This document shows positions 2,449 to 34,384 of a DNA stretch of 35,177 bases, piece by piece. This DNA comes from Chrysochromulina tobinii (taxonomy: Eukaryota): the NCBI GenBank assembly GCA_001275005.1, contig JWZX01002947.1, forward strand, positions 1 to 35,177, written 5' to 3'. Both the position numbers and the translations under genes were made by a program. Position 1 is the stretch's first letter. Each line of letters starts with the position of its first letter. The notes under the pieces are model-generated. The model was not told the DNA's origin. It did not search any database and saw only the letters and a list, made by a program, of their open reading frames with translations.

Positions 2449-2550
2449 TGGCTAGGTAGGGGCTTAGGGTGGGTATTACAAAAATAACAGTAAAGAAACC
2501 TGTGGCTATGTAGGGGTTAGGGTGCAGGGTTAGGGGCTAGGGGCTAGGGT
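2449..2550 (+). repeat. Degenerate telomere-like (TTAGGG/CTAGGG) tract
   Basis: TTAGGG at 2464, 2517 and 2530; CTAGGG at 2537 and 2544; six G-runs in 2513-2549. Confidence 0.65.
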
Positions 2551-2746
2551 GTGACGCGTTAGTGTTAGTTCATGAGGGCATGGGGTCGCCGCGCGCCATG
2601 TACGTGCCTCCTCATATGAGCGATGCAGGCGGTTTGGCGCGTCGGCGCGGCGAGCCAATCGCTCGGGCGCCCCCAAGTTGCCCCTCGAGGCCGCGGCCTC
2701 AGTGCGCCAGCGCGGCGCTAACCGCGCTCGTGGGGCCGTGCGTCCG

Positions 2747-3120: not shown

Positions 3121-3954
3121 GGGGGCGCCGAGAGACGCGCGCCTGTCGCTCGACACCGTCGCATTGCGACGGTGTCGAGTGCATCTTTGCGTTTACCGAG
3201 GGGGGGGGAGGCGCGCCATCGGGCGCGTCGGTGCACACAGGTTCGACGCCGCCGTCGTCTCCAATCGCGCCCTTCCATCGTCCCCTTCCCAGCGGATGCG
3301 CGCCGCAGGCTCCCGCCCGCCGCCTTTCCGCCGTCGGCGCTGCCTCGACCTCCTCCTCCTCCTCCTCTACCTCTCCGAAGTCGCCGGAGCCTCCCCCGCT
3401 TCGGCCTTCGCCGCAGCTGTCGCCGCCAGGGCTCGCCCGTGCGGGAAGTTTGTTGCCCTGGCCGAATTGGCTGCGGGACGGTAGGAACGTACTGGGGCCG
3501 GCGCACTCTGGATTCGTGTGGTGTATGACGTGGAGTATGGCGGCAATGGGCATGTCCAACGCTGGCGGCAGCGCCGGCGTCGGCGGCAAGCGCGCCAGAG
3601 AGTTAAAGAACGTGTGTTTGCCCTTCGGGCGTTAGGCGTACGGTACAGGCTTCCTAATAAACACCGCACGTCGTCCACGTACCGACTCCGTGGAAGAACG
3701 GGTAAAATACGCACACCCACATCGGGCGGCGCCTTTAATCACTTTGGCTAGCCAACCAGTCAGCGTTGCGCTGAGTGGCCCGGTTCGCTCGAACCGAGCG
3801 AACCTTCCCCCAAACTTATACGTGAACGTCAATCGCGATTGAGAGACAATCAATCATTCACAAGAAGCGCGCGCGCCGCACGACTGTGCGCACGGCACGC
3901 ACGCACGCACCGAGCGGTCATCTCGCGCCCTGCAGGCGAACAGGCCCGCCCGCG

Positions 3955-5543
3955 ATGACGTCTTCCGCGTCACAGTGGATATACCCAAGTTTGGCGCTCA
4001 ACTGCATCTTCTTCCTGAACCTCGTAGTGCGCGGCAATCTTGTCCCATGTAATGCTGTGCCATGTTTCGTGATGACGCCGTCTGCAAGTTCAGCGACGCC
4101 GTCTGCAAGTTCAGCGACGCCGTCTGCAAGTTCAGCGACGCCGTCTGCAAGTTCAGCGACGCCGTCTGCAAGTTCAGCGACCCCGTCTGCAAGTCCAGCG
4201 ACCCCGTCTGCAAGCTCAGAGGCCGAATCCATGCCTCCAAAGGACCCACATAGTTTGCCACTCTGGGCCAGGTTCGCACGGTATCCAGGGCCCGATTGGA
4301 ACAAGCTCTTCGATAAGGAGGAGCGAAAGCCCATTCAATCTTCTCCGCCGACGCCGCCGTATCCGCCGCCAGGGCCGGCTCAGGCGGTTGGTTCGCCCGC
4401 GTGCACGCATTTGCTCGAGTGTAGCCTCTCCAAGGGTACGCGGTCCAAGGTGTACCAAGCGTTCCAGAATGGGTACACGCACCTGATCCCGGACGAACTT
4501 GGATACGAGAGTGGCATCCGAGACATCGCCGACGGCGGCAGCGAGCTCCTCGTCCCTATTCGAAAGCAAATCATGCCGCCCGCTGCCAACATCCAGCTTG
4601 ACTGGAAGCCTGCGCCGTGGCCCACTCGCATCGATCTCAACCACCTCAACTGGGCAGCCCTCCCGAATGGGGAAAGGTTCCGCGAGTGCGGGAAATCGCA
4701 TGCACACAATGCTGAAGTGCACTTATACTGCAAGTGCGTGCTCCGCTTGCGTCGATCGTTTGTTCTTGGAGCCCTCACCACCTCGAAGCTGGCGTCTCAG
4801 AAACCAACCTTTGTTTGCCCGCAGGTATTTTACGAAGCAGTCCCTATTGTGGAATAAGGACTACTGGCCGGGGGCTGGGCCCTACGAAGACATCCCCGAC
4901 CACGTGTTCGATCGGCCAGACGTGCGGCTGGTACTTGATATAGGTGCAGGCAACGGCAACCTCGCCGTCAACTTGTTTCGGCGATATGGCGATCGCATCA
5001 TCACAGTGTCCACCACGCTCATCGTCGCCGCCGAGACTGTCCCCACGCTTCCGCCGCCCTTCATGCAAGTGATCGCGGCGCGTGGCTTCCCCACTGTGGC
5101 GCTCGACATCTTCTCATTCTTCCCCTTTGGCGAATCAACGTTTGACGTGATTCACACGAGCTGGGTCTATACCAGCGGCTTCACGCGCCACGCCATCATG
5201 GAGATGTGAGCAGTCGTCACGCGATTCCAACCTTGTCAAGTGATTCCAACCTTGCTTCACACACGCTGTCTGCTGAGCGGTGGTACCTAATCGGTTGGGC
5301 AGGTACCGTGTGCTGCGCCCCGGCGGGTACTTGATCCATACGGTGTGGGATAAGATGGCCTCCACCAGGGGCACGCTGCTCCTTGAATCGCTCGCCGCGA
5401 AGATGAATTGGAAGCTACTCGCCCATTACGAGACCTTCTCGGGCCGCAATGTGACCCAGGCGAAACTACGGGGGGACAAGGTACCTTACGACACCTACAA
5501 GACCATCTATCAGATGCCAAGCTACAAATACTCGAAGAAGTAG
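3955..5543 (+). CDS. Membrane-anchored class I SAM-dependent methyltransferase (resembles Methyltransf_29/PMT-type); exons 3955-4733, 4825-5205, 5303-5543
   Basis: N-terminal hydrophobic anchor (WIYPSLALNCIFFLNLVV) and a Ser/Ala/Pro stem. Motif I VLDIGAGNG, PFMQVIAARG, PFGESTFDVIH, and EM|YRVLRPGGY restored by splicing. GT-AG introns 4734-4824 and 5206-5302 join three ORFs in frame. Confidence 0.8.
4074..4215 (+). repeat. 21-nt coding minisatellite (TPSASSA repeats)
   Basis: GACGCCGTCTGCAAGTTCAGC repeated about 6.5 times in frame. Confidence 0.95.
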
Positions 5544-6065: not shown

Positions 6066-6600
6066 AGGCCTGCCTGGCTGCCGATCGTCCACATCTACTG
6101 TGCAATCGTAGTGGCAAGCGTAGTCGAGAGTACTAAGGGACTTGAGTATTATTGCTCGACCCCCCGATAACCATGCTTGGCATGGCATAGAGAGTCCCCC
6201 TAACTGCTACTACATGAGTAAAGGACTAGCCCATTCTACGTCGCGGCCGCTGAGTGGGGGGTGCGCGGGCCCCTTGCTGACTCATGTTGACGTCGAGGCG
6301 AGGGCGACAAGCGCACGAAAGGAGTGCGCGAGGAGGCCGGTGCTCAGCGAGGAGGTGGGCGATGGCGCTAATACTAATAGAGCGCGAAGTCCGCAGTTTT
6401 AAGTGACCGTTGAGGCCGAGCGGTTGAGGCCGGCGTGGTACCGGTGATGGGGTTGGTTGGTGGGTGTTGTCGAAGAGCGTGACGACACCGCTCTGAGGAG
6501 AGCTGCGTCTCTGCCATGACGAGGCGAGGCCGGGTCCTTTTGGTTGTTTCATCTCCGACGTTTCGTAAGTCGTTTCGTCGTCGACGTTACATGTACATAC

Positions 6601-7042
6601 GATTTCACACCCCTGTGAAATCGCAGGTGGCGTGTGTGATTCCCGGTGTGATTTCACACCCTACTGTGAAATCATACGCCCTGCGAAAGCACACCCCCTG
6701 TGATTTCGTAGCCGGCATGTGCGAAATCACAGCCCATCGTGAAAACGCACCCCTCGCGCCTCGGTGTGACTTCACACGAGGTCCCTGTGAAAATTATTCT
6801 GCGCGCAGACTGGACTATCAGACTGCGAAATCACACCCCCTGTGATTTTGCACCCGGCATGTGCGAAATCACAGCCTCTCGTGAAAACACACCCCTCGAT
6901 TTCACACGTGCCGCGTGTGATTTCACAGGTCCCTGTGAAAATGCATGCCCAGCGAAAACACACCCCCTGAGTGATTTCGCACCCGACATGATGTGCGAAA
7001 TCTCAGCCTCTCGTGAAAACACATCTGGTGGGATTTCACACA
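6601..7042. repeat. GTGAAA/TTTCAC-rich repeat island (probable non-autonomous mobile element)
   Basis: Hairpins GATTTCACA..TGTGAAATC at 6601-6622 and 6650-6673. Three diverged ~65-nt copies of CACCCCCTGTGATTT..CCGGCATGTGCGAAATCACAGCC..TCGTGAAAAC near 6690, 6832 and 6960. Confidence 0.75.
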
Positions 7043-8780: not shown

Positions 8781-9416
8781 CCGGCGGCCGGCGGCGTGTG
8801 CAATGAGTACCGAGTCGACGTGGCCGGAGCCAACTTCGGTGATTGCAAGTGTGGCTTTCCGAAGAGTGCCCATGCGGAGAGCGCGATGAAAGGCGATCGC
8901 CGTGGCGAGCGCCAAGAAGATGATGGGACCCTGAATGCAACCGTAATGCAACCCGGCTACGGCGTCCCCGGTTTGATGGGCACCCCGATGGACCAGTATG
9001 GCCTGATGGGACAGATGGGGCGCGGCGCGGGCGCCGGCCGTATGCAGCAGGGACAGCGCGGCGGCCCCGGCGGCCAGATGCGTGGCGGCAAGGGCGGGCC
9101 TGACATGCAGGGAGTCATGCAGGGCATGTAGGGCATGCAGAGCGTGCAGGGAGCCATGCAGGGAGCCATGACGGAAGCCTCACTCGCGGCGGCGGCGCCC
9201 GACCAGCAGAAGCAGCTCCTCGGCGAGCGCCTCTTCCCGCTCATCTCCCAGGTTCAGCCGGCCTTTTCCGGCAAGATCACGGGCATGCTCCTCGAAATGG
9301 ACGACGGCGAGCTGCTCAACCTTCTCGAGTCGCCCGAAGCGCTCATCGCCAAGATCGTGGAGGCGGTCTCAGCGCTCGAGATGCACGCCGCCGAGGGCGA
9401 TGTCAACCCCGAGTAA
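8781..9416 (+). pseudogene. In-frame continuation behind TAG stops: small Cys/His finger, Gln/Met/Gly linker and PABP-type MLLE (PABC) domain
   Basis: Same frame as 7149-8780, with TAG at 8778-8780 and 9129-9131. [24 protein letters not shown]...[11 protein letters not shown] is the canonical MLLE domain. Pseudogene versus readthrough status is unresolved. Confidence 0.6.
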
Positions 9417-12800: not shown

Positions 12801-14726
12801 GGGCGGCGCACGCAACGGCTCCGCGGGCATCGGAAGGGCGCCGTCGAGGGCGAGGCGCTGCCCGTTGAGGTACGAGGCGGTCGGCAGCGGCGCGGGCGGC
12901 GCGGGCAGAGGCACCGGCCCGGCGTACGCGCCGTACACGTCGACCTGTGGCGAAGCCGAGGGCGCTGTGGTGAGCACTTGCATGCAAGGCAGGTCATCAG
13001 TGGCAATCAGCGTACCTGTGGGGAAGCCGAGGGCGGCGCGTTGAGCACGTTGCAGTTGCATCCGAGGGTGGTCGGTAGCGCGCCGCCAGCGCTGCCCTGG
13101 GAGGCGCGCCGTAGGGGCTTCGCGCGCTCAGCGTTGGCTCCGGGCTCGACGCCGCTCAAGTCGGGCTCCGATGCCGGCGGGAGCGAGACGGCGGCCGCGT
13201 GCGGCTGCGCATACGCCGTGCTGATCGGCAGAGGGCCGGTGCTCGGGAGCGCCGCGCTGTCGTGGGCGCCCTTGGCGCCGCCACTGCTCCGCCGTCCATC
13301 GCGGCGTGCGTGGTGGCCGCGCGCCACCGACTGGAGTTTCATCGCGGCGAGCTGCTCCTCTTCAGAGTAAAAGTCGTCCTCATCCGCGCCGGAGGCGTCT
13401 GCTCCGTCGCGGCGCGAGCGGCGCGACGCGCTCACGGACGGCTCCTCGGGCACCACCTGATGAGGGAGGCAATCAGCGGTCATCAGTGGTCATCAGAGGT
13501 CATCAGAGACGGCTCTTCGGGCACACACCTGATGAGGCCAGCAATCAGTCGCACTCAGCAGTCAATTCAATCACAAGGCAATCATCGCTCCTCGGGCACT
13601 ACCTGCGAGCTCGAGAGCTCGAACGAAGGGACGAAACGGTCCATGCAATCAGAGGTCATCAGCGGTCATCAGAAGTCATCAGCGGTCATCAGCGGTCATC
13701 CACCTGCAAGCTCGAGAGCTCGGACGAAGGGACGAAGCGAGGGACGCCGCGCTCGCTGCCCTCGCTGCCTCCGCCGAGGTCTTCCTCCGCGTCCGAGGGC
13801 GTGTCGTACTCCTGGTACGAAAACTTATCCGACTCGGAACCTCCCTCGCCCCCTGCAGACTGACCGGCCCTCGAGCGCAACGGCGACGGAGCCCCGCCTG
13901 AGGGCGCCGTGGCGGGCGAGGAGGCGCCGCTCATGGCGTGCCACCACGCGCTCTGCTGCACCGCGGAGAGCGTCGCGCGCTGCGCCACGTCCACCACGAA
14001 GACGGTGTCGAACAGAGCGTTCAGTGGCGTTGAGAACCAATCGACGCGCTGCCACTGGCCCAACGCCTTGTGGCCATCGGCCTCGAAAGGGAGCTTGGCG
14101 GTGAGCATGGTGTACAGGACGACGCCGAGCGACCAGACGTCGGCGGGCGCCCCCGCGTACGGCGCGCCGCTCGACACCTCGGGCGCCATGTACTTGCCCG
14201 CGCCCACCTGCTCGGGGGGCACCTGTATGCCGATGCATGAGTGCGAAAAGTCGCACACGACCGCGCGCCCTGGACGGCCGTCGTCGTCGTCGGCGCTGCC
14301 CTCCTGAAGCAGCACGTTCTGCGGCTTGAGATCGAGGTGGGCGATCCCGCACGCGTGCATGTGCGCCACGCCCGTGACCACGTCGCGCCACACGCCAAAG
14401 TTGAAGCGCTCGTCCCCTGCTGCGCGCCCCTGCTGAATGAGGCGAATGAGGTCGCCGCCGCCGCAGAATTCGAGCACGAGCGAGTCGATGCCGCGCTCGT
14501 CGGGCACCACCTCGAGGAGCCGGACGACGTTCTCGTGCTCGCCGAGCTTGTGCAGCACGGCGACCTCGTTCGCCGCCTTGATCTTGTCGAGCTCGGCGCC
14601 CCCCTCGGAGAGGAACTGCTTGATGGCGACGGCGTCGCCAGTCTGGTCGGAGGTGGCCAGGTAGACCTTGGCGAATCCGCCCTCGCCAATCTCCTCCACG
14701 ACGCTGTAGCCAGCGAAGGAGGGCAT
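9885..14726 (-). CDS. CAMK-group-like Ser/Thr kinase with IQ motifs and long low-complexity tail; exons 14726-13704, 13456-13016, 12944-9885
   Basis: GEGGFAKV, VAIK, HLDLKPQN, CDFS, YMAPE, DVWSLG. IQ-like motifs KLQSVARGHHARR and VIQSHFRANAAKK. Two phase-0 GT-AG introns join three ORFs. Additional introns in the last exon cannot be excluded. Confidence 0.75.
12945..13015 (-). other. 71-nt intron whose 3' half copies the upstream exon end
   Basis: CAG|GTACGCTGATTGCCACTGATGACC...GCCCTCGGCTTCGCCACAG|GTC; restores frame PPSASPQ|VDVY. Confidence 0.8.
13457..13703 (-). other. 247-nt intron with CTGATGACC repeats and an internal exon-junction copy
   Basis: CAG|GTGGATGACCGCTGATG...CTGATTGCCTCCCTCATCAG|GTG; restores frame SSLQ|VVPEEP. 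Confidence 0.8.
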
Positions 14727-15151
14727 GGATGGGCCGCCTCTGTGCCTTGAAGAGGCAATGAACACAGGGGAGAAGTAACCGTCAACCGTTCAGCCCAACG
14801 GTCACACACTATCGCTCACACTGTTCACACAGTGAGGCTCAGAGTTCGAGTCTGTGAGAAGGGCTGAGGCGACGGCCGACCATGCGGCCGACTGTGCAAG
14901 TGCTTAACTGGGTATATTGTTGCGGGAGCGCAGATCCCCGCTGTTAAGTTCTAAGTTGTTACACGCTGCATTGACGATTGAGACATGAGAGATTCAGATT
15001 GACACGCTAATGACACGCTGACGGACCCTACTGTCTTGCTTATCCGGATACGTAAACTCTGAAGTGAAAAGTCACTTCTGTGCGCACCCTCGATACACGT
15101 ACGATCTGTCAATCGACGCTTGTGACGTTGTGAGCAGCGCCCGCGCCCCAA

Positions 15152-15210
15152 GTGTGCCATTGAAAAGTAACCGGCCATTGCTGGCCTCCGCCGGTGTGCC
15201 ATTGAAAAGT
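15152..15210. repeat. 17-nt direct repeat in intergenic/3' region
   Basis: GTGTGCCATTGAAAAGT at 15152-15168 and 15194-15210. Confidence 0.85.
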
Positions 15211-15263
15211 TACGCGGCCGAGGTACGGGATGGGAGTCCACCCAAAGAAGAGCCCCCAAGGCC

Positions 15264-15874
15264 CTAGGCCTGGCGCTGTGCCATTTCTTGCAAGAGGCGC
15301 TCTGCAGTCGCGACACTCCTTTCGTCGTTGTTGAGTGCGATCGCCTTCAGGCAGTGCTCCTTGGCTGCGAGCACGGCACTCACAGGCATGGAGCTTTGCA
15401 GTCCCTCGGCCGCGGCGGCTGCCCGAGCCCCTCTGCGAGACAGAGCAACGCGAGATTGACGTGCGCGGCGGAAAGCGCCCGGCACTCCAGCGCTCTCTCG
15501 AAGCTCTTCCTTGCAGCCGAGCGATCACGGCGCTGCACATACAGGATACCCATGTTAACCAGCACCTCAGAAAAGGTATGCGGAGGAGCGCCGTGCTCCT
15601 CGGCTGCCCTGACAAAGACATCGTAGGCTTCCAGAGCGCCGTTTGTGTCGCCAGCGCGCTGTCTGGCCACGCCAAGATGAAATTGCGACAGAAGCGAAGA
15701 ACTCTCTGTGAAGGTGCTAAACCCCAAGTCGTCACTCGGGAGGTCTCTGTCCTGCAAGCAGGCAGCACAACCACGAGCCATACCGACATCCACAGCAAGC
15801 CGCGGCTGGGGGCAGGTTCGCCAGCTCAGCGACCAGGCTGCTGCGGAGTGGACCGCGAGGACGATGGCGGCCAT
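15264..15874 (-). CDS. TPR-like helical-repeat protein with apparent 1-nt frameshift near 15430
   Basis: TPR-like segments FHLGVARQRAGDTNGALEAY, LVNMGILYVQRRDRSAARKSFERAL and AAHVNLALL. The natural continuation (AAKEHCLKAIALNND...AERLL) lies in the adjacent frame. Possible N-terminal signal peptide. Confidence 0.6.
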
Positions 15875-16122
15875 CGAATAATCAAGAGCGTGTGCGTCGG
15901 GAGTTGTGAAGAGAAGACTGCGTACGATGGTGCCGTTGGAAGCGAGTGAAGCGTACTTGTACCGAAACCTCTGTTCAGCTGTGTTCGCGCGCCGTCGTAG
16001 TGTTCACAGGATCACACCGCATTGCCGCTTTACGCACTACGGGTAGCCGCTCACGGCGCTGTCCAGCGTCGCCACCGAAGCCAGCTCAGCTCAATCCGCG
16101 CGACACCGGCCGCGCAGGCGCG

Positions 16123-17259
16123 ATGACGAGCGCTGGCTCCGACCTGGACCGGCAAATCGAGCAGCTGAAACGCTGCGAGTACATCAAGGAGGCGGAGGTC
16201 AAATCCCTCTGCGCAAAGGCGCGTGAGATCCTCGTTGAGGAGAGCAATGTGCAGCGCGTGGACGCGCCTGTGACGGTGCGTGCCTGGCACGCGCCCGGAC
16301 CCACGCGCTCCCATGGGCGCGCCGCCGGCCCCGCCGACCAGCCCTGGCCCACGCGTTGCTGTCGCCCTGTGTGCCCGGCCCGGCAAGCTGCCTCCGAGAC
16401 TGTGCTGTGGCCTGGTGTCCACGCTCTGGGCGAGACCCCCCTGCGCTCCTTGCTGAGCCTTGCCCGTGCCGCCTGCCCGCAGATCTGCGGCGACATCCAC
16501 GGCCAATTCTATGACCTGATGGAGCTCTTCAAGGTGGGAGGTGACTTGCCAGACACCAACTACCTGTTCATGGGCGACTTCGTCGACCGCGGCTTCTACT
16601 CGGTCGAGACGTTTCTGCTGCTGCTCGCGCTCAAGGTGCGGTACCCGGACCGCATCACGCTCATCCGTGGCAACCACGAGAGCCGCCAGATCACGCAGGT
16701 CTACGGCTTCTACGACGAGTGCCTGCGCAAGTACGGCTCCGTCAACGTGTGGCGCTACTGCACCGAGATCTTCGACTACCTGTCGCTCTCCTCGATCATC
16801 GAGGACAAGATCTTCTGCGTGCACGGTGGCCTCTCGCCCTCGATCAACACGCTCGACCAGATCCGCGTCATCGACCGCAAGCAGGAGGTGCCGCACGACG
16901 GCGCCATGTGCGACCTCATGTGGTCCGACCCGGAGGACATTGACGGCTGGGGTCTCTCGCCTCGAGGCGCCGGGTACCTGTTCGGCGGCGACGTGGTCAC
17001 GCAGTTCAATACCACCAACAACATCGACCTGATCGCGCGCGCGCACCAGCTGGTGATGGAGGGCTACAAGCACATGTTTACCGGCCAGACCCTCGTGACT
17101 GTTTGGTCGGCTCCCAATTACTGCTACCGGTGCGGCAACGTGGCGGCGATCCTCGAGCTCGATGAGCAGCTCCAGAAGAACTACAAGATCTTCGAGGCCG
17201 CGCCGCAGGAGGCGCGCGGTGTGCCTGCCAAAAAGCCCGCGCCCGACTACTTTTTGTAG
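16123..17259 (+). CDS. PPP4C: Serine/threonine protein phosphatase 4 catalytic subunit; exons 16123-16275, 16483-17259
   Basis: [43 protein letters not shown] and C-terminal DYFL. GT-AG intron 16276-16482 restores DAPVT|ICGD. Confidence 0.95.
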
Positions 17260-17814
17260 AGCGAGCTCCGAGGCCCCTGTGCTCGCGACGGCGCGCCGAG
17301 CCTCTCCGCACGCGCCGCGCTGGCACTGTGAAGGAGGCGCTGAGAGCGCGCTGTGCTGAGCACTGTGAAGGAGGCGCTCGTCCTCCCCAGAGCGCGCCGT
17401 GCGGCGGCTGTGCCGAGAGGAGGAGGGGATGCCGAGCCACAGCGGAGACGACTACCTTCAGGCGGCGCGTTCGCGTGTCCCTATCGCGAGGACGCATAAA
17501 GCAGGCACGAGACTCTCGATGAAGACAAATAACAGATCCGTAAACTGTCGCATGCGGCATGATGCAGGTCGCGCATACAGTGTAGTCAATTCGCATACAC
17601 TTTTAAATTCGAGTTCCAATCAATCACACGGGAAACTTGCAAAGATGCAAACGAAGTCGCTGTTGGCGCACTCACTGGAGTGGTCCTTGGAAGCGCCGCC
17701 AATCAGCTGCCAATCCATCGGTCGACGCAGGCGCGTTTGGCCTTCTTCCGTCGCGTGGCCGCTCGACTCCCGGCGGAATCTGAGTGACGTCCACACCCTG
17801 CTCGCCCCGCAGAA

Positions 17815-20800
17815 ATGGGCTGCACGTGCTCCCAGCCCAACGAGGCCGGTGCTCGCATGGCGGCCACTTCCAGCACCAAATTCTTCCATGGACAGAAGCG
17901 GAAGATGAGCAGAACACGCCGCATCGCCGTGCGGTGCGTGCAAGCACCACTCTGTGCCGCTAACCGCGGACCGCCCGCGGCGCACCCGACCCGGTGGCAG
18001 CTGCCTCACTGCGATGCTTGCTGAGCCTGCTGCGCTCGTGCAGGGTGGAGACCAACGATGATATGTCCTATGAGGATATGCACATGGAGGCGGTCTCTAA
18101 AACGGATGAAGAGCGCGCATTCATCACAAAGGCCACCAAGAAGAACGAGATCTTCGAGCAGTATGCACCGCCAGCGCGCGCAAAGCACGCATCACCACAC
18201 CTTCCCTGGTGCTCTGCAACACCACAACTACACTCACGCGGCTTTTGCGGCGGCTGCCGTCTCTCGCGTGCGCAGTCTGACGGATGATCAGGTCTCCTTC
18301 ATGATCCGTGGATTCACGAGGCTCGAAATCCCAGAGGGTGAGCTTGTAATCTCCCAGGGTGAGGCGGGCGACCACTTCTACATCGTCGTGAGCGGTCGTT
18401 ACGAGGCGTCGCTCTCGCAGCTCAGCGGTGAGGTCGTGGCCGAGTACGGCGGTGCCGATTCCTTTGGCGAGCTCGCGCTGCTGTACAATGCGCCGCGTGC
18501 CGCCACGATCAGGTGCACCGCAGGCGCGCCGGGCGGGCTGGCGAGCGGGCTACATGGCGGGGTGCTCTGGGCACTCGAGCGCAAGCGCTTTCGCCACGTG
18601 ATGGTTCACACGAACGCGTCCTCGCTCGCGTCGAAAGCCGAGCACTTCCTCAAGAGCGTGCCCATGCTCTCCGCCCTTACAGACGCGCAGGTGGGATGGG
18701 AGGCGCCCTCTCTGAGTGCTATGCCTACTTGATGCATGCCTCTCTGAGTGCTCTCGCCCTCCCTCCACAATGATTGCGGATGGGCCTCTCTGAGTGCTCT
18801 CTGATAGAACAGATGGAACGCGGATGGCCCTCTCTGAGTGCTCTCGCCTCCCTCCACAATGCACAGCGGCACGCTCTCGCGGATGTGATGGACGAGGTTC
18901 GTTACTCCGACGGCGAGTACCTGGTCACGATGGGTGAGGTGGCGGACGCGCTCTTCTTCATCAAGTCGGGCGAGGTACGCTGCTCGACCTGATTGCATGC
19001 TGATTGCCTCCCTCATCTCGAGCGTTCCGCGCTCTTCTTCATCAAGTCGGGCGAGGTGCATGCGCATGTGTAGCGCGTGTGTGGCACACCACCAAGCGCC
19101 ACACATACACATATGCCCCGCGAGCCGCGAGCGACTGTTCTACCACAGACTGATCAGAACACTGATTCTGCCGCTGATTGCGACCAGGTGGCATGCCATC
19201 AAGGCCGAGCTTCACGTGCGGGCGACATACTGCGCATGAAGACTGGGGACGTCTTCGGCGAGTCGTTCCTCGAGCCGACGGCAGAGGACGCGGTGCGCAA
19301 GGCGAACGTGGTGGCGGTCGGGCCGGTGACGGTGCTCAGGCTGACGGCGATGGCGTTCAGGGAGCAGCTGGGCAACTTGCAGGTCAGATGACCGCCAAAG
19401 ATGGTCGCTGATGGCATCTCATTCTGACTGATAGAGGCTGTGATAGCCACTGATTGAGACCGAGAGTGCCTCTGCTCAACGCGCGCTCGTGAGTGCTACC
19501 TGATACAGGAAGTCGTCAACCAGAACTTCAAGCGCAAGGTTCTCGAGGGGGTCGAGATCGAACACGTCAAACTCCTCGACCAACTGTCGCACGACCAGCA
19601 GGGTGACTTTCTCAACAAGCTGCAGGAGAAGATCATCCCCCCCGGCGGCCGATGCATCACGCAGGGCAACGAGAACGACACCTTCTTCGTCATCAAGACG
19701 GGTGTGGCGCGCGTGCTCCTCGACCGTGGCATCCAGGGCATGTGCAGCGGGCCGCTCGAGATTGCGACCCTCACCACGGGTAAGTTCTTCGGCGAGCGGG
19801 CGCTGCTCAAGTCGGAGCCGGCCTCGGCCACCATCCAGGCCGCCGGAGACCAGCCCCTAGTGTGCTACACGTGCGACCGCGACACATTCACCGCGGTACT
19901 CGGCCCACTCCAATCGCTCATCGATAAGGAGATGCAGAAGCGCGACAAGGCGCTCAATCGCCCCGACGCTCCCAAGTTTGGCGATTTGGAGCTTCGACGG
20001 ATCTTGGGCGTGGGTACGTTTGGGCGTGTGAAGCTTGTGGTGCACAAGAAGACGGGCGAGACGTATGCGCTCAAATGCATGCGTAAGGCACAGGTAGTCG
20101 CCATGAGGCAGCAGGCGCACGTGCTATTGGAGAAGGAGATTCTGTCGAGGATGGAGCATCCGTTCATCCTCAAGCTCGTGCAGACCTACCAGGTGAGTGC
20201 CGATTACTTCTCCAGCACACTCCCATTGCCATGCAACTGATTGAACCTAAGATTGAACCTAAGATTGAACCAGTGATCTTGTGTGATTGAACGCCAGCAC
20301 TGACCTTATGGCTGCCGCTGTGTGAGTGTGCGCCAGGACGAGGGAGAGCTCTACATGCTCGAAGAGCTCGCCCTGGGTGGCGAGCTCTTCTCCGTGCTCG
20401 CGAAGCGCGCGCCGCTCTTCGATGGGTACGCCCAATTCTACATTGCGTCGGTCGTCTCGATGTTCTCGTACATGCACTCGCTCAGGGTCGTCTACCGCGA
20501 TCTCAAGCCCGAGAACTTGCTCCTCGATGCACAGGGCTACCTCAAACTTGTGGATTTTGGCTTTGCGAAGGTCCTCGTCGACCGCACGTGGACGCTCTGC
20601 GGCACGCCCGAGTATCTCGCGCCCGAGATCGTCCTCAACAAGGGACACGGATTCGCGGCCGACTGGTGGTGCGTCGGCATCCTCGCGTTCGAGTGCCTAA
20701 CGGGTACCACCCCCTTTGTCTCAAGCGACCCGATGGAGGCCTACCGAAAGATCGTCAAGGGCAGGGTGCCCTGGCCGGCCCAGCTCACGACGAATGCGCG

Positions 20801-21074
20801 CGACTTCATCGACCGGTTGCTGTGCGTGGATCCCTCCCACCGGCTCGGCTCGTTCAAGGGGGGCTCGAAGGATGTGAGGAATCACGGCTGGTTCGACGGC
20901 CTCGACTTCAAAAGCCTCGAGGCGAAACAGCTCGCAGCGCCCTACGTGCCGAAAATCAAGCACGCCCTCGACGACTCCAACTTCGACACGTACGTGGATG
21001 AGGGCGTCTTGGATTATCCGCAGGAGGACTTCCCCAGGGACATGTTCGAGGAGTTTGCGTATGAGTGGGTCTGA
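17815..21074 (+). CDS. Cyclic-nucleotide-regulated AGC kinase (three CNB domains + PKA/PKG-type catalytic domain); exons 17815-17933, 18044-18160, 18276-18690, 18867-18974, 19188-19382, 19509-20192, 20337-21074
   Basis: MGCTCS acylation motif and RRIAV pseudosubstrate-like motif. CNB cassettes FGELALLYNAPRAATI, FGESFL..RKANV and FGERALLKSEPASATI. Kinase motifs GVGTFGRV, YRDLKPEN, DFG, RTWTLCGTPEYLAPE and DDSNFDTY. Six GT-AG introns each restore the frame. Confidence 0.88.
18691..18866 (+). other. 176-nt intron built of internal repeats
   Basis: CCTCTCTGAGTGCT occurs four times and the pre-acceptor CTCCCTCCACAATG twice; restores LTDAQ|RHALAD. Confidence 0.8.
18975..19187 (+). other. 213-nt intron containing an exact 28-nt copy of the upstream exon end
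   Basis: 18947-18974 equals 19028-19055; restores IKSGE|VACHQ. Confidence 0.82.
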
Positions 21075-21886
21075 TCGCCTCTACATACAGTAGCGCTTTG
21101 ACCACAAGTTGATTTTGGCTTGATCTGAGATGATCTGATCTGGTTCTTGCACTTAAGAACGCCCCACGTTCATACTCATAACCTTCTCGACCAGACCATG
21201 AAGATGGACCAGACGAGCTGAGGGATGGTGGAGGTGAGATGCGAAGGGAGGCGCATCGGGCAGGAGACGATTTACATTGGGCGTTTGGGGGTGACGTGTC
21301 TGGTTCTGTCGAGGGTCCAGGCTCCACGCTCCAGGGGGCGGTAGAAGCGTAGAACACTGGATGTCCACATGTGCTGGAGAGCGATGTCATGGACCCATGA
21401 ACGCTTGGTTGGTATAAAGGACGTCGGTCACCGGAAATCAGTCCTGTTCTAGTATCACGGGCTCTATTATGGGACAAGCATTATCGGAGTAGCGAGTTGT
21501 ATACTCCTAGTATACTGTCCCTCCCCCACGTCCGTGCCGGTCGACCGGGGAAAATCCACACATGCACACGCCGCGCCCGCGGACCCCCGACACGACGAGT
21601 CACAACAGACGCGCACGGCCGTGGAATTACTCACCAATTCCGAAACGGTTCACGTCCAAGTTCACATCACACCACAGAAGTTAACCAGTGCTGCTCGTTC
21701 AGGTCACACGATTTTCCTCCGAAACGAGTGTAGTGTGTAGTGGCCGAGTAATCAACAGTCTGTTCTGCCCCCGTCCGGAACCCGCCATGGTGTGAATGCT
21801 AATGTGTGAATGTGAATGTGTGATTTCTCCGCACATGTAAACAACCGTCGTGGCGGGGCCGCGGTCGCGCGTCGACCAATCGATTC

Positions 21887-24800
21887 ATGAATGCCAGCTC
21901 CGCATTGACCCTCGATCGCTTCGCCACCACCGGCGTCGGCATGGTGCCCATCACCGCACGCAAGTATGACGGCGCTGTCGCAGTCGGCTCCTTGTTCGTC
22001 ATGGCGCCGCAAGACGAGGACAGCATCGGTATCCTCGACGCCGAAACGCTCATTTACAGTCGCGTGCCGCTCTCCGGCGTGTCGGGCCAGCGCAAGTACA
22101 GCGGCGCGGCGTTCGTCGGCGACACCGTCTACTTTGCGCCATTCCGTGCGACCGGTGTCGGGGTGTACGACGTGTCGGGCTCACGGCCCTTCCGGAGCAT
22201 CCCCGTGCAGTACAGCGGCAGCACTCCCGGTGCAATCCAATCCAACACGTACAGATACCAAGGCTTGGCGCACAACGCCCTGACGGGCAACCTCTACTTT
22301 GCGCCGTACGACAATCACGACGTGGGAGTGCTCAACGTGTCCTCGAGTGCCTGGCGGGCGGTCGCGCTGCCTACGCCGTCGGGCGGCTTCGTGAACGGCC
22401 AGTTCAGCGGTGTGGTGAGCGTCGGCCGGTACATCTACTGCGTGCCCTTCCAGCGGAGTGACCTGCTTGTTCTGGACACGCTCACCGAACAATTCACCTC
22501 CGTGGAGCTCCCGCTGAGCTCGCGTTTCGGCTCGTCCAAATTCTACGGCGGCGTGAGCGTCGTCTTGGGCGGATGGAGCGCGCCACGCGTGTATCTGGTG
22601 CCGTACAACCAGCCCGGCCTCGGGGTGCTCGACACGGCCACCTGGGCCTTCTCGTCGGTCGCGCTGCCCGTGAGCGGCCTCGCTAAGTACGCCGGCGGCG
22701 TCGTCCTGGGCACGCGCCTCTACCTGTGCCCCTATTACGCCGACGCTGTGGGGATCTTCGACCTTTCGAGCGGCAGCTTCCACAGCGTACCTGTCGGGCC
22801 GGCGGGCGCGGTCGGCATCCAAAAGTTTTCCGGCGCCGCCGTGGTGGGCGGCATCGTCTTCTTTGCACCCCGCGACACTGACGCCATTGGTCTCCTCTCG
22901 CCCTCCCCGCCGCCCTCGCCTTCACCCGGCAGGCCGCCGAGCCCTCCGCAGCCGCTGCACCCGCACGCGCCCCGCCATCCGCCGCCGCCGCATCCGCCAA
23001 GCGCGCCACCGCCCAGTAACACGGGACTGTGGACAACTCTCTTCGTCGTCATGTTCTCCTCGGTCACAGTCGGTACAATCCTCGGGCTCTTCATCCTGTG
23101 GCGCGCGGGGCGCATCTGGTACGTCCTTGATTGCGCCCGGATTGCATCTGATTGCCCCAGTTGAGGACCTCTGATGGCACCCCTCATCAGCTACCTGCCC
23201 ACGCTCCTTGATTACGCCTGGATTGCGTCTGATTGCGTCTGATTGCATCCCTCATCAGGTACCGCCGGCGCATCGCCTGGCGTCGCTACCGCGAAACTGT
23301 CAATACCGGCGGGCGGCGGCAGCGCGTCGCGACGAGCGCGGCCCAAGCCGCCCAAGCCGGCGCTCCCAAACTAGACCATCCCAAATTAGGCAAGGCCCGC
23401 ACTCTGAGAAAGAGCAGCTCGACGCGTGCGCTAGTCAACCCTTTTGGGTCTCCAAAGTTTGGCCATCAACCAAAGCCCGAGGGCGGCGCGGCCAACGGCT
23501 CGGCGGCCGACCACTCGAAGACGGCCAACGGTGGGCGCCATGATGGGCGCAGCTCTGGGCTCCGTGGTGGGCGTCGCGCACCGCGCACGTTGGATTTCGA
23601 CGCGGGCCTCAACCTGTGTGGTAAGGGCGGCGGTGGCGGTGAGCGTGCGGTGGCGGGGGGCGTGAAGGAGGGCGTGGAGGAGGAGGGGTATGAGGAAGAC
23701 CTGATGCCCCTTTCTGAGCGTGACGAGGACGAGGATGAGGACGACGAGGAGGAGGTGATTTCGATGGGGTGCTTCGACCCGCGCATGCCCAACACGGCGT
23801 CCCGCAGACCCACCCATGGGCGCGACTCCGAGGATGGCGTGCAGGTACACGTGGCGCCCACGGATGGCAACGGATTGCAACGGATTGCAACGGATGGCAA
23901 CGGTTGCGACGACAAGAAAAGCTCACCACGGCGCCCCCTTTCCGCGCGGGTACACGCGGTGCCTTGGATCCTGGCCTCTCCGACCTCCAGGGCTGTCCCC
24001 ACACCCCAATCGACGAAGACGACCCCGCGCCGGGCGGGCGGGATGAGCGGCGCCGGCGTCTTCGAATCTCCGAGCCCGAGCTGCGCCAAGCTCCCACAGC
24101 GCGCGCGGCCGACGGCGCGCGAGATTGAATCTCGGCGGACCGAGATAGAATCTCGGCGGACCGAGATCGACTCTCGGTCCGCCGTCCTCTGGGAGCCAAC
24201 GGCGCCTGCTCCACCGCCTCAGCTGATCAACACGGCGCGCGAGATCGAATCTCGGCGGACCGAGATTGAATCTCGGCGGACCGTCCTCTGGGAGCCAACG
24301 GCGCCTGCTCCACCGCCTCAGCTGATCAACACGCGCGTGCACGATCCGCGTGTGGCTCCTACGCTGAGGAAGCTTGCGACCTGGGAGCCCACAAGGCTGG
24401 CCCCTCGACTTGGAGTTGACGAAGCCCGAGATGACGAAGCCCCTCGATTTGGAGTTGACGAAGCCCGAGATGACGAAGCCCCGCGATTTGGAGAGAGAGG
24501 CTGCGGGACATCGCTCATGGCCCCAACGATGCAGCCTTCGCTCGCCCCACCCGCGCAGCCATCCCCGCCGCTGGCCCAGCCGCTGCAGCCGCGTCCACCA
24601 GCTGTGAACAGACTGGCGCAGCCGCTGCAGCCGCGTCCACCAGTGCAGCCGTCGTCGTCGCCTTCGATGCCGCCACTGCCGCCGGAGCCATCTCAGGAGC
24701 CCGCGCTGGGAGTGCCTCGCCGTCCCCCATCCGGTGGGCAGCACACCCGCGTTGGGGAAAGTGGCTGCTCACCAGCTGTGAACCTACCAGCTGTGAACTC

Positions 24801-26007
24801 ACCAGCTGTGAGCTCGCCAGCTGTGAACAGACTAACTGTCGTTGACCGCTCCGCATCGGCAGCGGAGGCCGTTGTCGACTCGTACTTGGACCAGATTGAG
24901 ATTGAGAAGCAGATTGCCTCCATTGAGGCCGACGAGATGGCTGCCGCCGCTGCCGTCGCCGCCGCCGCCGCCGCCGCCGCGTCCGCGTCCGCCGCCGCGT
25001 CCGCCGCCGCCGCCGCCGCTGCCGCCTGCACCCCTCCCACCTCGCGCCAGGAGGTCAGCGGCCGAGGACGCGGTGGAAAGCTCGGAGGGCTCAGTGGGGA
25101 ACTCCTCGCTCTCCGCGAGCAGGCGAGTGCCGTTAATTGCCTCTTGATTGCCTCTTCTGATTGCCTCTGATTGCGTGGTTGCTCTCCGCGAGCAGGCGGC
25201 CGCGCTCCGGGCGCGTGCGGCGGCGGAGCCGATCCCACAGTCGCCCGATGCGCCCACGACGGCGCTTAAACAGTCGCCCGATGCGCCCACGACGGCGCGT
25301 ACACAGTCGCCCGATGCGCCCACGACGGCGCTTACACAGTCGCCCGACGAGCCGTTGTGTTGGGCGCCTGTCCCAGGCAGCCCCGGCCTCGAGCGCCGTA
25401 TTGGGCTCGAATCGCAGCTTCCAGGCACTCTGACGCCATCAAGGGCTGGCGGGAGCGGCGGCGCCGGCGCCGGCGCCGGTGGCGGTGGCGGCGGTGGCGG
25501 CCGCGACGGCGACGACGAAGGCGATGGCTCGCCGCGCGTTCGGCTTGTGGTACGCTCTTCGCCTCTGCGCGCCTCCCATCTGTCTCGAGAGCACGAGGAT
25601 TGGACACTGCCTAATATGGAGGACGAGGAGCTGCCTAATATGGAGGACGCGACTCATCGGCAGCAGACCGCCGCGCCCAACACGACGCTCGAGGGCCTGT
25701 CCGGAGTACCGGTAGCCGGGGCCACGGGAGCCGCGCCCAACACGGCGCGCGTCGCGCCCGCGCTTCGAACGGCGCCCATCGCAGGTACCGAAGCCGAGCG
25801 TGAATGGCTCTGATTGGCTCTGATTGGCTCTGATTGCGTGTCTCATCAGGTATCGAAGCCGAGCGTGATTGGCTTCGATCGCTGCCCGTGCTGCCCTCGC
25901 TGCCGACGTTGCCAACGCTCGCGGAGGCACGACGGGCGAAGACCGAGCGGCCGCTGCCGCCGGTCGAGCGAGCATCACAAGAAGATCCATCAGTCCTCAG
26001 ATTCTGA
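21887..26007 (+). CDS. Single-pass membrane protein: beta-propeller-like repeats, Pro-rich stalk, TM helix, low-complexity tail; exons 21887-23118, 23259-25122, 25196-25784, 25850-26007
   Basis: About 7 repeats of K(Y/F)xGxVxVGxxxYxxPxxxxxxGxxD, a PPPSPSP stalk, and TM LWTTLFVVMFSSVTVGTILGLFILW followed by basic W|YRRR. Introns 23119-23258, 25123-25195 (GC-AG) and 25785-25849 restore frames. 5' end uncertain because no clear signal peptide is present. Confidence 0.65.
23119..23258 (+). other. 140-nt intron with GATTGC micro-repeats and shared 3' module
   Basis: TG|GTACGT...CTGATTGCATCCCTCATCAG|G. A decoy copy of the acceptor (CCCTCATCAGCTACC) sits near 23181-23195. Confidence 0.82.
24112..24490 (+). 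repeat. Nested coding duplications (EIESRRT, VLWEPTAPAPPPQLINT, GVDEARDDEAPRF)
   Basis: 21-nt units containing the self-complementary GAGATNGAATCTC, a ~105-nt duplication and a 39-nt duplication, all in frame. Confidence 0.8.
25123..25195 (+). other. 73-nt GC-AG intron flanked by an exact 18-nt duplication
   Basis: GCTCTCCGCGAGCAGGCG at 25108-25125 and 25181-25198 with TGATTGCCTC filler between; restores LREQ|AAALR. Confidence 0.72.
25785..25849 (+). other. 65-nt intron whose 5' part copies the downstream exon start
   Basis: CAG|GTACCGAAGCCGAGCGTGAATGGCT versus CAG|GTATCGAAGCCGAGCGTGATTGGCT, with CTGATTGGCT filler. Confidence 0.75.
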
Positions 26008-32974: not shown

Positions 32975-33126
32975 CCTCACGAGCGCCCCCTCAGCCTCGT
33001 ACGCTCGCGTCCTCACGAGCGCCCCCTCAGCCTCGCACGCTCGCGTCCTCACGAGCGCCCCCTCAGCCTCGTACGCTCGCGTCCTCACGAGCGCCCCCTC
33101 AGCCTCGTACGCTCGCGTCCTCACGA
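32975..33126. repeat. 36-nt minisatellite spanning the MAPK stop codon and 3' UTR
   Basis: CCTCACGAGCGCCCCCTCAGCCTCGTACGCTCGCGT in four copies plus a partial, with one substitution. Confidence 0.95.
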
Positions 33127-34384
33127 TGGCCGTGGGCCGACGCTGTGCGACGGTGGGAGGTCTGTTCGGCGCCGCGCCCGGCCGCCCGCTTTGCTTGGTC
33201 AATCTCCTTGTACAGGAAGTCGCGGTACCTGAGGAGAGAGGCAAGGAGAGGCGCTCAGCGATGCACTCATCGGTACTCGGTTCGGCCATCAGGTGGGCGA
33301 TCATATGCAATCCATGAATGAACATGGGCAATGAAGTAGCGTACATGCTCGTATTCTTCTTCTCATTGTCGTCGATGGGCACCTGAACGCATTTGGCCGC
33401 CTTGCGCTCGACTGCGGGGTCGTGGAACTGGGCGACGTATCGGTGCTCGAGCGCCTGCTCGGCCGTCAGCCGATCATCAGGGTTGAAGCGCAGCAGCTGC
33501 ATCATCAAGTCGATTGCGTCGTCGCTCGTGTCGGCGGGCAGCTTGCGCCGCCAGCGCTCCCGCGCGTCTTCGTCACTCGCGGCCGAGGGCATGCCCTGCA
33601 CTTGCTCGCATAGGGACGGCGCGTACTGGCTCACCTTGGCGATCGCCGCCGCGTCCGGCTTGCCGACGAGCTCCATCACTTTCTCGAGTTGATTCATAGT
33701 TGAGGATCCGGGGAACACGGGCTTGCCCAGGATCATCTCGCCCAAAATACAGCCGACCGACCACATGTCGACGCCAAACGTGTAGCGGCTCGAGCCGAGC
33801 AGGATCTCGGGCGCACGGTACCACCTTGTCGCCACGTAGTCCGTCAGCGGCTGCGGAGGGTCAGTCGAATCCAGCATGGCTCCCGTCGCGGGCGATGCGC
33901 GCAGCGAGCGCGCGAGCCCAAAGTCGGCCACCTTCATCAGGCAGTCCGAGTTGAGGAGGAGATTGGACGGCTTCATGTCGCGGTGAAGGAGCTCGGCCGA
34001 GTGCATGTACTTGAGGGCCTTTAGCGACTGCCACAGAATGTACTGCTTATGAATCTCCTGCAGGATGTTGGCACGGATGGCCGCGTGCAGGTCCGTCTCC
34101 ATGTACTCGAAGATGAGGTAGATGTCGCGGTCATTGTCGGCCTTGAGCACGCTGTGCAGCCGAATGATGTGCTCGTGACTGCTCATCTCGCGAAGCAAGT
34201 GGATCTCGCGAAAGGTCCGCTGCGCGTCCGTCGCATTCTGGAAGGCGTCAAAGATCTTCTTGAGTGCGACGACCTCCTTGGTCTGCTTCGACTGTGCTCT
34301 CCAGACGATGCCGTAGGCGCCCTTGCCGAGCTTCTGCAGGATGTCGTACTTGCGCAGCACATGCCGGTCTATCTCCTCCGACAT
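33099..34384 (-). CDS. MAPK15: Mitogen-activated protein kinase 15 (ERK7/ERK8-type); exons 34384-33345, 33228-33099
   Basis: MSEEIDRHVLRKY, GKGAYGIVW, KKIFDAFQNATDAQRTFREI, HRDMKPSN and TDYVATRWYR. Intron 33344-33229 restores SM|YRDFLYKEI. Confidence 0.92.

What the first reader, a model, noticed from the sequence alone, without database searches (positions are those of the whole stretch)
12945..25849. Candidate intron-generating system: introns made of self-exon duplications, CTGAT micro-repeats and a shared 3' module
Seen: at least six introns in three unrelated genes (12945-13015, 13457-13703, 18975-19187, 23119-23258, 25123-25195, 25785-25849) share one architecture. Each has a near-exact duplication (about 15-49 nt) of sequence at its own splice junction, centred on AG|GT or AG|GC, plus filler of CTGATTG/CTGATGA repeats. 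Other introns here (PP4, first two in the CNB kinase, first in the methyltransferase) lack this. Known: CTRAY is the branch-point consensus, tandem duplication across AG|GT is a proposed intron-gain route, and described Introners are near-identical transposon copies with short target-site duplications. Inference: this is a hybrid mechanism in which long local duplications supply the splice sites and a reiteratively copied branch-point-like sequence fills the gap, for example by templated break repair or a reverse-transcriptase-like activity. High copy identity suggests recent events.
Basis: partly seen in the sequence, partly recalled or inferred. Interest (0 to 1): 0.88.

Follow-up and report, generated by a model that had tools for sequence, protein, structure and literature searches.

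The report
Self-copying introns in a freshwater alga
In the alga Chrysochromulina tobinii many predicted introns are half a 13-55-base copy of the neighbouring exon and half a piece shared with other introns, often of the same gene, which likely means existing introns are being copied into new sites by a route that published intron-transposon screens scored as absent.

Summary
Real and genome-wide, but not quite as first described. The window is Chrysochromulina tobinii. Five of six claimed introns carry a 15-33-nt copy of a flanking exon; 23119-23258 does not. Only three end in the shared 3' module. In 133 further loci, about half of module-ended sites carry a 13-55-nt copy of the downstream exon start (63/133 versus 0.1% swapped). 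A mirror class copies the upstream exon end (9/17). The copy supplies one splice site and the inserted intron piece the other; AG|GT centring is the minority. CTGAT repeats are dispensable: a second module lacks them. New here: donors are enriched on the same contig (best match in cis 14/81, 1.0 expected), and one whole 101-nt intron was copied 2.9 kb upstream within its gene. Best reading, inferred: template switching copies existing intron ends into new sites with long target duplications. No spliced RNA junction, empty site or enzyme was shown. The scan noted the downstream-copy footprint before on another piece of this genome (e1-2577349).

The parts
12945..13015 (-). Predicted intron, class B: shared 5' module (about 51 nt, starts GTACG, includes module 2) plus a 20-nt copy of the upstream exon end that supplies the AG
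   Evidence: near-identical 5' module in L015, L028, L037, L052, L069
13603..13703 (-). Intron 2, unit 1 (class B): GT + CTGATGACC filler + 33-nt copy of the upstream exon end
13529..13602 (-). Intron 2, unit 2 (class A): 16-nt copy of the downstream exon start + filler + module 1
13457..13528 (-). Intron 2, unit 3 (class A): second, gapped copy of the downstream exon start + a different filler + module 1 supplying the predicted acceptor
   Evidence: read from sequence
18975..19187 (+). CNB/PKG-like kinase intron: class B unit (perfect copy 19028-19055 of 18947-18974) placed in front of an older-looking intron
   Evidence: removal is gap-free against 8 of 8 homologues
23119..23258 (+). Predicted intron of two filler+module-1 units; no long exon copy (4-nt GTAC only)
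23845..23949 (+).
   Evidence: read through by contigs of 3 of 3 RNA runs laid
25123..25195 (+). Predicted GC-AG intron, class B: filler + perfect 15-nt copy of the upstream exon end
25785..25849 (+). Predicted intron, class A: 25-nt copy of the downstream exon start + 10-mer filler + module 1
   Evidence: identical in L110
9887..14726 (-). Host gene 1: protein kinase domain plus long low-complexity tail
17815..21034 (+). Host gene 2: cyclic-nucleotide-binding kinase, 100% identical to a C. tobinii record (P0001); introns 18691-18866, 19383-19508 and 20193-20336 have filler motifs but no copy
21887..26005 (+). Host gene 3: 1280-codon frame with no Pfam match in the two exons scanned

Best explanation
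These predicted introns are a long copy of the flanking exon joined to a piece shared with other introns, and they likely arise when a polymerase repairing a staggered break in a gene switches template to an existing intron, often one of the same gene, and back. In class A the insert is the 3' end of a donor intron (branch point to AG) and the duplicated target, starting at GT or GC, becomes the new donor site. In class B the insert is the 5' end of a donor and the duplicated exon end supplies the AG. With short homology at both ends a whole intron is copied. One switch falls at the donor's splice site, the other at 1-6 nt of microhomology. Products that splice out cleanly and reach about 60-90 nt would survive and become donors themselves, so a few lineages (modules 1, 2 and the 5' module) spread without a conserved full-length element. 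The CTGAT 10-mers likely expand and contract later by slippage. Shown: anatomy, enrichment over controls, microhomology, cis bias, one directional whole-intron copy, protein colinearity after removal. Inferred: splicing, novelty of most positions, the break, the polymerase, and the template. I favour the gene's own transcript or excised intron over DNA about 55:45.
For: Copy of exon start at module-1 sites 63/133 vs 0.1% swapped; module 2 21/48 vs 0.5%; class B 9/17 vs 0. Copy length 13-55, median 25; starts GT in 50/54. Microhomology mean 2.07 vs 1.08 nt, n=30 of 49, p=4e-4. Copy and insert lengths anticorrelate (rho -0.57, n=49) and total length varies less than in 5000 of 5000 permutations. 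Best match in cis for 14 of 81 sites vs 1.0 expected; high-similarity pairs 11.5% vs 3.0%, 2 of 5000 permutations; 9 of 10 top cis pairs inspected have unrelated downstream exons. L043 349-449 is 97/101 identical to 3217-3317 and carries the exon-derived 5' part of the 3217 site. L043 has 15 introns in 3.5 kb, 14 module-ended, none shared among three AAA-like repeats, in a genome averaging one intron per gene (PMC4580454, passage). Same strand in 67 of 70 pairs 0.3-4 kb apart. Removal restores colinearity: L020 30/30, L021 61/94 homologues gap-free, MetRS profile 348|350 in L080.
Against: No spliced RNA junction was seen; one RNA contig reads through most of intron 2 (X15 record 17). No empty site among 11 module sites in 7 strain pairs (seed sites are present in both by design). 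About half of module-ended sites have no long copy, and only 2-3 of 15 in L043 do. Most best matches (67 of 81) are not in cis. AG before the first copy is enriched over random coding GT sites (17/48 vs 14%), which also fits pre-existing junctions, and 12 of 54 copies follow an older module. Third-position excess of mismatches was not significant (16/37, p=0.11). Loci were selected by the module pattern, so the sample is biased.
Confidence: 0.6

Rival explanations
1. A very short non-autonomous element (SINE-, Penelope- or Replitron-like) is inserted by an autonomous partner with variable target duplications; copies survive where they splice out.
For: Variable duplication, one fixed end and one variable end with microhomology match target-primed insertion (recalled from L1 biology). 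Replitron-1 makes variable TSDs, and C. tobinii has one putative Replitron locus (PMC10288648, passages and section 9). The 5' module is near-identical over about 50 nt on six contigs.
Against: Two mirror polarities; several unrelated modules; sense-strand bias and no module-1 copy outside introns in the window; cis-shared variants; the copied L043 intron contains host exon sequence; no tail, no inverted repeat, no fold.
Confidence: 0.15
2. The process only rebuilds existing introns: units are added at old junctions and the older part is later lost, so positions are ancient.
For: Window introns 2 and 3 and L022 show different units stacked at one junction; 12/54 copies follow an older module; AG and G enriched before the copy; no empty site seen.
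Against: 29 of 42 first copies follow a non-AG dinucleotide with no intron remnant; the L043 copy sits at a site unrelated to its donor; no positions shared among three internal repeats.
Confidence: 0.12
3. Ordinary tandem duplications plus ectopic gene conversion between neighbouring introns, filtered by selection, with no dedicated mechanism.
For: The window is rich in unrelated tandem duplications; whole units are tandemly repeated (L012, L025) and vary in number (L024/L071); cis similarity could be later homogenisation.
Against: A plain duplication does not bring in an AG-bearing module at a site with no intron nearby; perfect young copies already carry gene-specific filler (L020/L021).
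Confidence: 0.09
4. One reading: a telomerase-like or repair activity reiteratively synthesises a branch-point motif between two exon copies that supply both splice sites.
For: Locally homogeneous 10-mer arrays; in 25785-25849 the unit resembles the exon.
Against: Module-2 introns lack arrays; the insert usually supplies one splice site; array length differs between strains.
Confidence: 0.04

Closest known systems
Introners / ILEs that carry one splice site and co-opt the other from the TSD (Symbiodinium and Polarella classes 4, 5, 6, 8, 10: bioRxiv 10.1101/2020.10.14.339549, parts 1-2 of 4 read; marine Chrysochromulina MAG introners: PMC9860276 and its preprint, passages and supplement rows)
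   Same: One splice site from the insert, the other from the duplicated target; strong phase-0 bias (32 of 48).
   Different: Reported TSDs are fixed at 3-8 nt (4 nt in the Chrysochromulina MAG); here 13-55 nt and variable, only part of an intron is shared, both polarities occur, donors are cis-biased. C. tobinii scored 0 introner families in PMC12130899 (supplement file 7 row).
Intron transposition / same-gene intron duplication (Oikopleura, Mycosphaerella; PMC3443670 and PMC3609843, passages)
   Same: A whole intron copied to an unrelated site of the same gene (L043); template switching is named there as a proposed route.
   Different: Described as rare (14 events; at most 16 same-gene duplicates per fungal species) and whole-intron; here mostly half introns with long target copies, at high density.
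Intron gain at staggered double-strand breaks in Daphnia (PMC4202315, passages)
   Same: Direct repeat of the adjacent exon at the far end of the intron; repeated gains at one site.
   Different: Repeats there are 4-12 bp; here 13-55 nt, and the insert is recognisably another intron's end.
Tandem genomic duplication across AGGT (PMC3443670, passages)
   Same: Exon sequence becomes intron; precise removal.
   Different: Both sites come from the duplicate there; here usually one, with foreign insert between the copies.
Replitron-1 of Chlamydomonas (PMC10288648, section 9 part 1 read)
   Same: Copy-and-paste, orientation-specific, variable-length TSD, one fuzzy end.
   Different: 0.9-3.6 kb elements with terminal direct repeats and a Rep transposase, not described there as intron makers.

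Membership tests
Introner (transposon-derived) | Near-identical full-length copies in unrelated genes | tested here: inconclusive
   Only ends are shared: 20-nt module 1, about 45-nt module 2, about 50-nt 5' module; one full-length copy, in cis
Introner (transposon-derived) | Fixed short TSD | tested here: not met
   13-55 nt, median 25
Introner (transposon-derived) | Terminal inverted repeats or stable fold (many families) | tested here: not met
   9 of 9 introns or units folded no better than shuffles, z -0.98 to +1.39
Introner (transposon-derived) | One splice site carried, one co-opted from the target | tested here: met
   (predicted sites)
Introner (transposon-derived) | Empty orthologous sites | tested here: inconclusive
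   0 of 11 sites in 7 strain pairs, biased sample
Introner (transposon-derived) | Autonomous partner element | not testable with these tools
   No whole genome held
Tandem genomic duplication across AGGT | Both splice sites from the duplicate | tested here: not met
   AG precedes the first copy in 13 of 42; acceptor lies in the insert
Non-LTR target-primed insertion | Variable TSD with one truncated, microhomologous end | tested here: met
   (class A); feature list recalled
Non-LTR target-primed insertion | Insertion in both orientations and outside genes; single fixed 3' end | tested here: not met
   67 of 70 same-strand pairs and a mirror class with fixed 5' end; small, gene-centred sample
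Same-gene intron transposition | Homologous introns at non-homologous sites of one gene | tested here: met
   L043 349-449 vs 3217-3317; one case
Same-gene intron transposition | RNA intermediate (reverse splicing, reverse transcription) | not testable with these tools
   No test separates RNA from DNA template here
Spliceosomal intron | Removed from mRNA at the predicted GT/GC-AG | tested here: inconclusive
   Protein colinearity supports it; no RNA junction seen

The most novel reading that the evidence does not exclude
C. tobinii is undergoing ongoing, transposase-free intron multiplication: the gene's own pre-mRNA or excised introns serve as repair templates, so half or whole introns are pasted into new exon sites of the same gene with 13-55-nt duplications, and each product becomes a new donor. 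This would be genome-scale evidence for the template-switching route of intron gain, invisible to introner screens.
Probability: 0.33. Interest if true: 0.9.

Novelty: new variant of a known kind. Interest (0 to 1): 0.74.

Why it matters
Where new spliceosomal introns come from is a long-standing question, and recent surveys attribute most gain to transposons found by whole-intron similarity. This genome scored zero in such a screen yet carries what are likely thousands of young chimeric introns whose parts can be traced to the flanking exon and to a donor intron. It is a cultured alga with wild relatives, so the template-switch and intron-transposition models become directly testable, and similar footprints can be sought in other genomes.

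Tried and rejected
No whole genome or contig handles were available, so genome-wide counts, paralogue comparisons and the search for an autonomous element were not done. RNA contigs gave no listed joint across any of the six introns; the joint table was cut and dominated by repeat noise. Two contigs start exactly at 13700, four shared bases into intron 2, which is only a weak hint. Homologue searches with unique exons of the minus and plus genes found nothing. Viral contigs: 52 pattern matches, none with the filler context, and no kinase relative, so no viral carrier was seen. Rfam: 0 matches. A hairpin or MITE reading of CTGATGA...TCATCAG was rejected on folding. L020/L021 was tried as a recent bacterial gene, but named homologues are other eukaryotes, so it does not date the introns; long uninterrupted ENA proteins spanning these sites (P0124, P0128) may be intron-free relatives, but the gene-calling method is unknown and I gave them no weight. 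A systematic search for introns carrying another site's exon returned 1 cis and 5 trans weak hits, none convincing, and its filter excluded the L043 pair. The L015 cis pair was set aside as a domain duplication. Two 'absent' flags (L012/L054, L024/L071) come from tandem units, not empty sites. Assembly artefact rejected.

Full report
Identity. An exon of the CNB kinase is 100% identical to a record named Chrysochromulina tobinii on a contig of 35177 bases. No whole genome was held, so wider evidence comes from one metagenome pattern scan: 134 stretches, stored as 133 loci, 390 kb. These come from several assemblies of the same or a very close organism (orthologous pairs mostly 96-100% identical). 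The sample is selected by the module pattern and is gene-centred.

Observation. The six segments exist and their removal opens long frames. Five of six have a junction-anchored exon copy and 0 of 9 other window introns do. The exception, 23119-23258, has only an internal repeat. Only three end in module 1. Intron 13457-13703 is three stacked units with different fillers and copy lengths, and 18975-19187 is a young unit in front of an older-looking intron. A seventh unit at 23845-23949 ends in GG, is in frame, and is read through by RNA contigs of all three RNA runs laid; intergenic bins had zero RNA depth, but DNA carry-over is not excluded. The summed DNA depth in the bin holding intron 2 was 45002 against about 45 in quiet bins. 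The tool warns this is no copy number, so 'thousands of copies' is an inference.

Class A. Of 144 module-1 sites with enough flank, 133 were distinct; 63 had an upstream copy of the exon start scoring 12 or more, against 0.1% of swapped pairs. A control anchored 40 nt into the exon gave 16, probably raised by tandem whole units and long copies. Among 107 terminal units, 54 passed: length 13-55, 21 perfect, first copy starting GT in 50, preceded by an older module in 12, by AG in 13, by neither in 29. For the 49 units of 130 nt or less, copy and insert lengths anticorrelate and the total clusters at about 60-90 nt. The copy-insert junction shows microhomology in the 30 of 49 testable cases; 19 were dropped because the insert start was not in the filler library. 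A second, unrelated module without tandem filler gives the same anatomy in 21 of 48 sites (that count includes some tandem units).

Class B. A shared 5' module is followed by a copy of the upstream exon end in 9 of 17 sites, against 0 in swapped controls. In two L022 cases the copy does not end in AG and sits in front of a further unit, so events also hit existing junctions.

Donors. After dropping 14 redundant or unrelated loci and clustering 285 sites into 160, same-contig pairs were more alike than others: 11.5% of 78 pairs versus 3.0% of 12375 at the high threshold, 2 of 5000 permutations; mean score 45 of 5000; best match in cis for 14 of 81 sites versus 1.0 expected. Nine of ten top pairs inspected have unrelated downstream exons. 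In L043, intron 349-449 matches 3217-3317 at 97 of 101 bases, including a 5' part that copies the exon after 3317 and not its own, so it was copied from there to a site sharing about nine bases of context. That gene has 15 hand-placed introns giving a stop-free 701-codon frame, 10 ending in module 1 and 4 in module 2, none at a position shared among its three AAA-like repeats (the family label is recalled from motifs, Pfam gave no match on four short exons). The repeats may be old, so this shows gain after their duplication, not its date.

Precision. Removing copy plus insert is gap-free against 8 of 8 kinase homologues, 30 of 30 for L020 and 61 of 94 for L021, and joins Pfam positions 348 and 350 in L080 (95 exon pieces scanned, most without a family). 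Retention would stop or shift the frame in 47 of 53 clean cases, with frames chosen by script. No RNA junction was seen, so splicing remains predicted.

Against. No empty site in 11 comparable sites. About half the module sites have no long copy. AG before the copy is enriched over random coding GT (17/48 versus 14%). Codon-position bias of mismatches was not significant. Filler unit numbers differ between strains in four pairs, which argues the arrays are unstable after insertion.

Mechanism. A duplicated target, one junction fixed at a donor splice site, one at microhomology, two mirror polarities and cis-biased donors are most simply explained by template switching onto an existing intron during repair of a staggered break, followed by selection for clean splicing. 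Sense orientation and exact donor ends favour an RNA or cDNA template, but selection could produce both from DNA-templated events. The enzyme is unknown.

Literature. Ten searches found no description of this anatomy in C. tobinii; the library lacks most subscription papers. The genome paper (PMC4580454, passages) says only one intron per gene. PMC9860276 and its preprint (passages and supplement rows; the file was cut when stored) report introners with 4-bp TSDs in a marine Chrysochromulina MAG and list C. tobinii as surveyed. PMC12130899 (passages; supplement rows; files 13 and 14 not searched) gives C. tobinii 0 families and notes a five-copy Emiliania family with 10-bp direct repeats, possibly related. 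Dinoflagellate ILE TSDs are 3-8 nt (its supplement was not seen). Daphnia repeats are 4-12 bp. Reviews list template switching and same-gene transposition as proposed or rare. Replitron-1 has variable TSDs. L1-type hallmarks are recalled, not from a call.

Verdict. A real, widespread and young intron-building process; it works like intron transposition combined with long target duplication, and fails the fixed-TSD and whole-copy tests for Introners. New variant of a known kind; interest 0.74.

Noticed in passing
window 23845-23949: In-frame, AG-less unit with exon copy, filler and module 2; likely an exonised or failed intron adding 35 codons.
   Followed up: partly
window 13016-13063 (minus strand): The predicted exon end before intron 1 itself resembles module 2, so it may be an older exonised intron end or mark a longer intron.
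   Followed up: no
window 18691-18866, 19383-19508, 20193-20336, 33229-33344: Introns with sense-strand filler motifs but no exon copy; possibly older members of the same lineages.
   Followed up: partly
window 19509 onward: The public protein model P0001 lacks residues just after the 19383-19508 intron that all seven other homologues and my model have; likely a mis-set acceptor in the annotation.
   Followed up: partly
window 15424-15428: DNA run X13 and two RNA runs each lack two single bases relative to the window; a possible assembly error or strain difference.
   Followed up: no
window 4071-4220, 6600-7030, 24112-24333, 32979-33126: Many other tandem or dispersed duplications in exons and between genes; the genome seems prone to local duplication.
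   Followed up: no
window 2455-2555: Short TTAGGG-like run away from a contig end; a similar run on the other strand lies in the last L043 intron (3407-3525).
   Followed up: no
window 349-660, 8950-9416; L043 3900-4230: Thioredoxin-like and poly(A)-binding-protein C-terminal-like pieces (labels recalled from motifs) attached to unrelated frames; the window and L043 thioredoxin-like pieces look related.
   Followed up: no
L020/L021: Large alpha-2-macroglobulin-like gene (bacterial MG10 domain, EGF repeats) with homologues in a dinoflagellate transcriptome and green algae.
   Followed up: partly
L024 vs L071: A 94-nt class A unit is present twice in one assembly and once in the other; unit-number polymorphism or assembly collapse.
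   Followed up: partly
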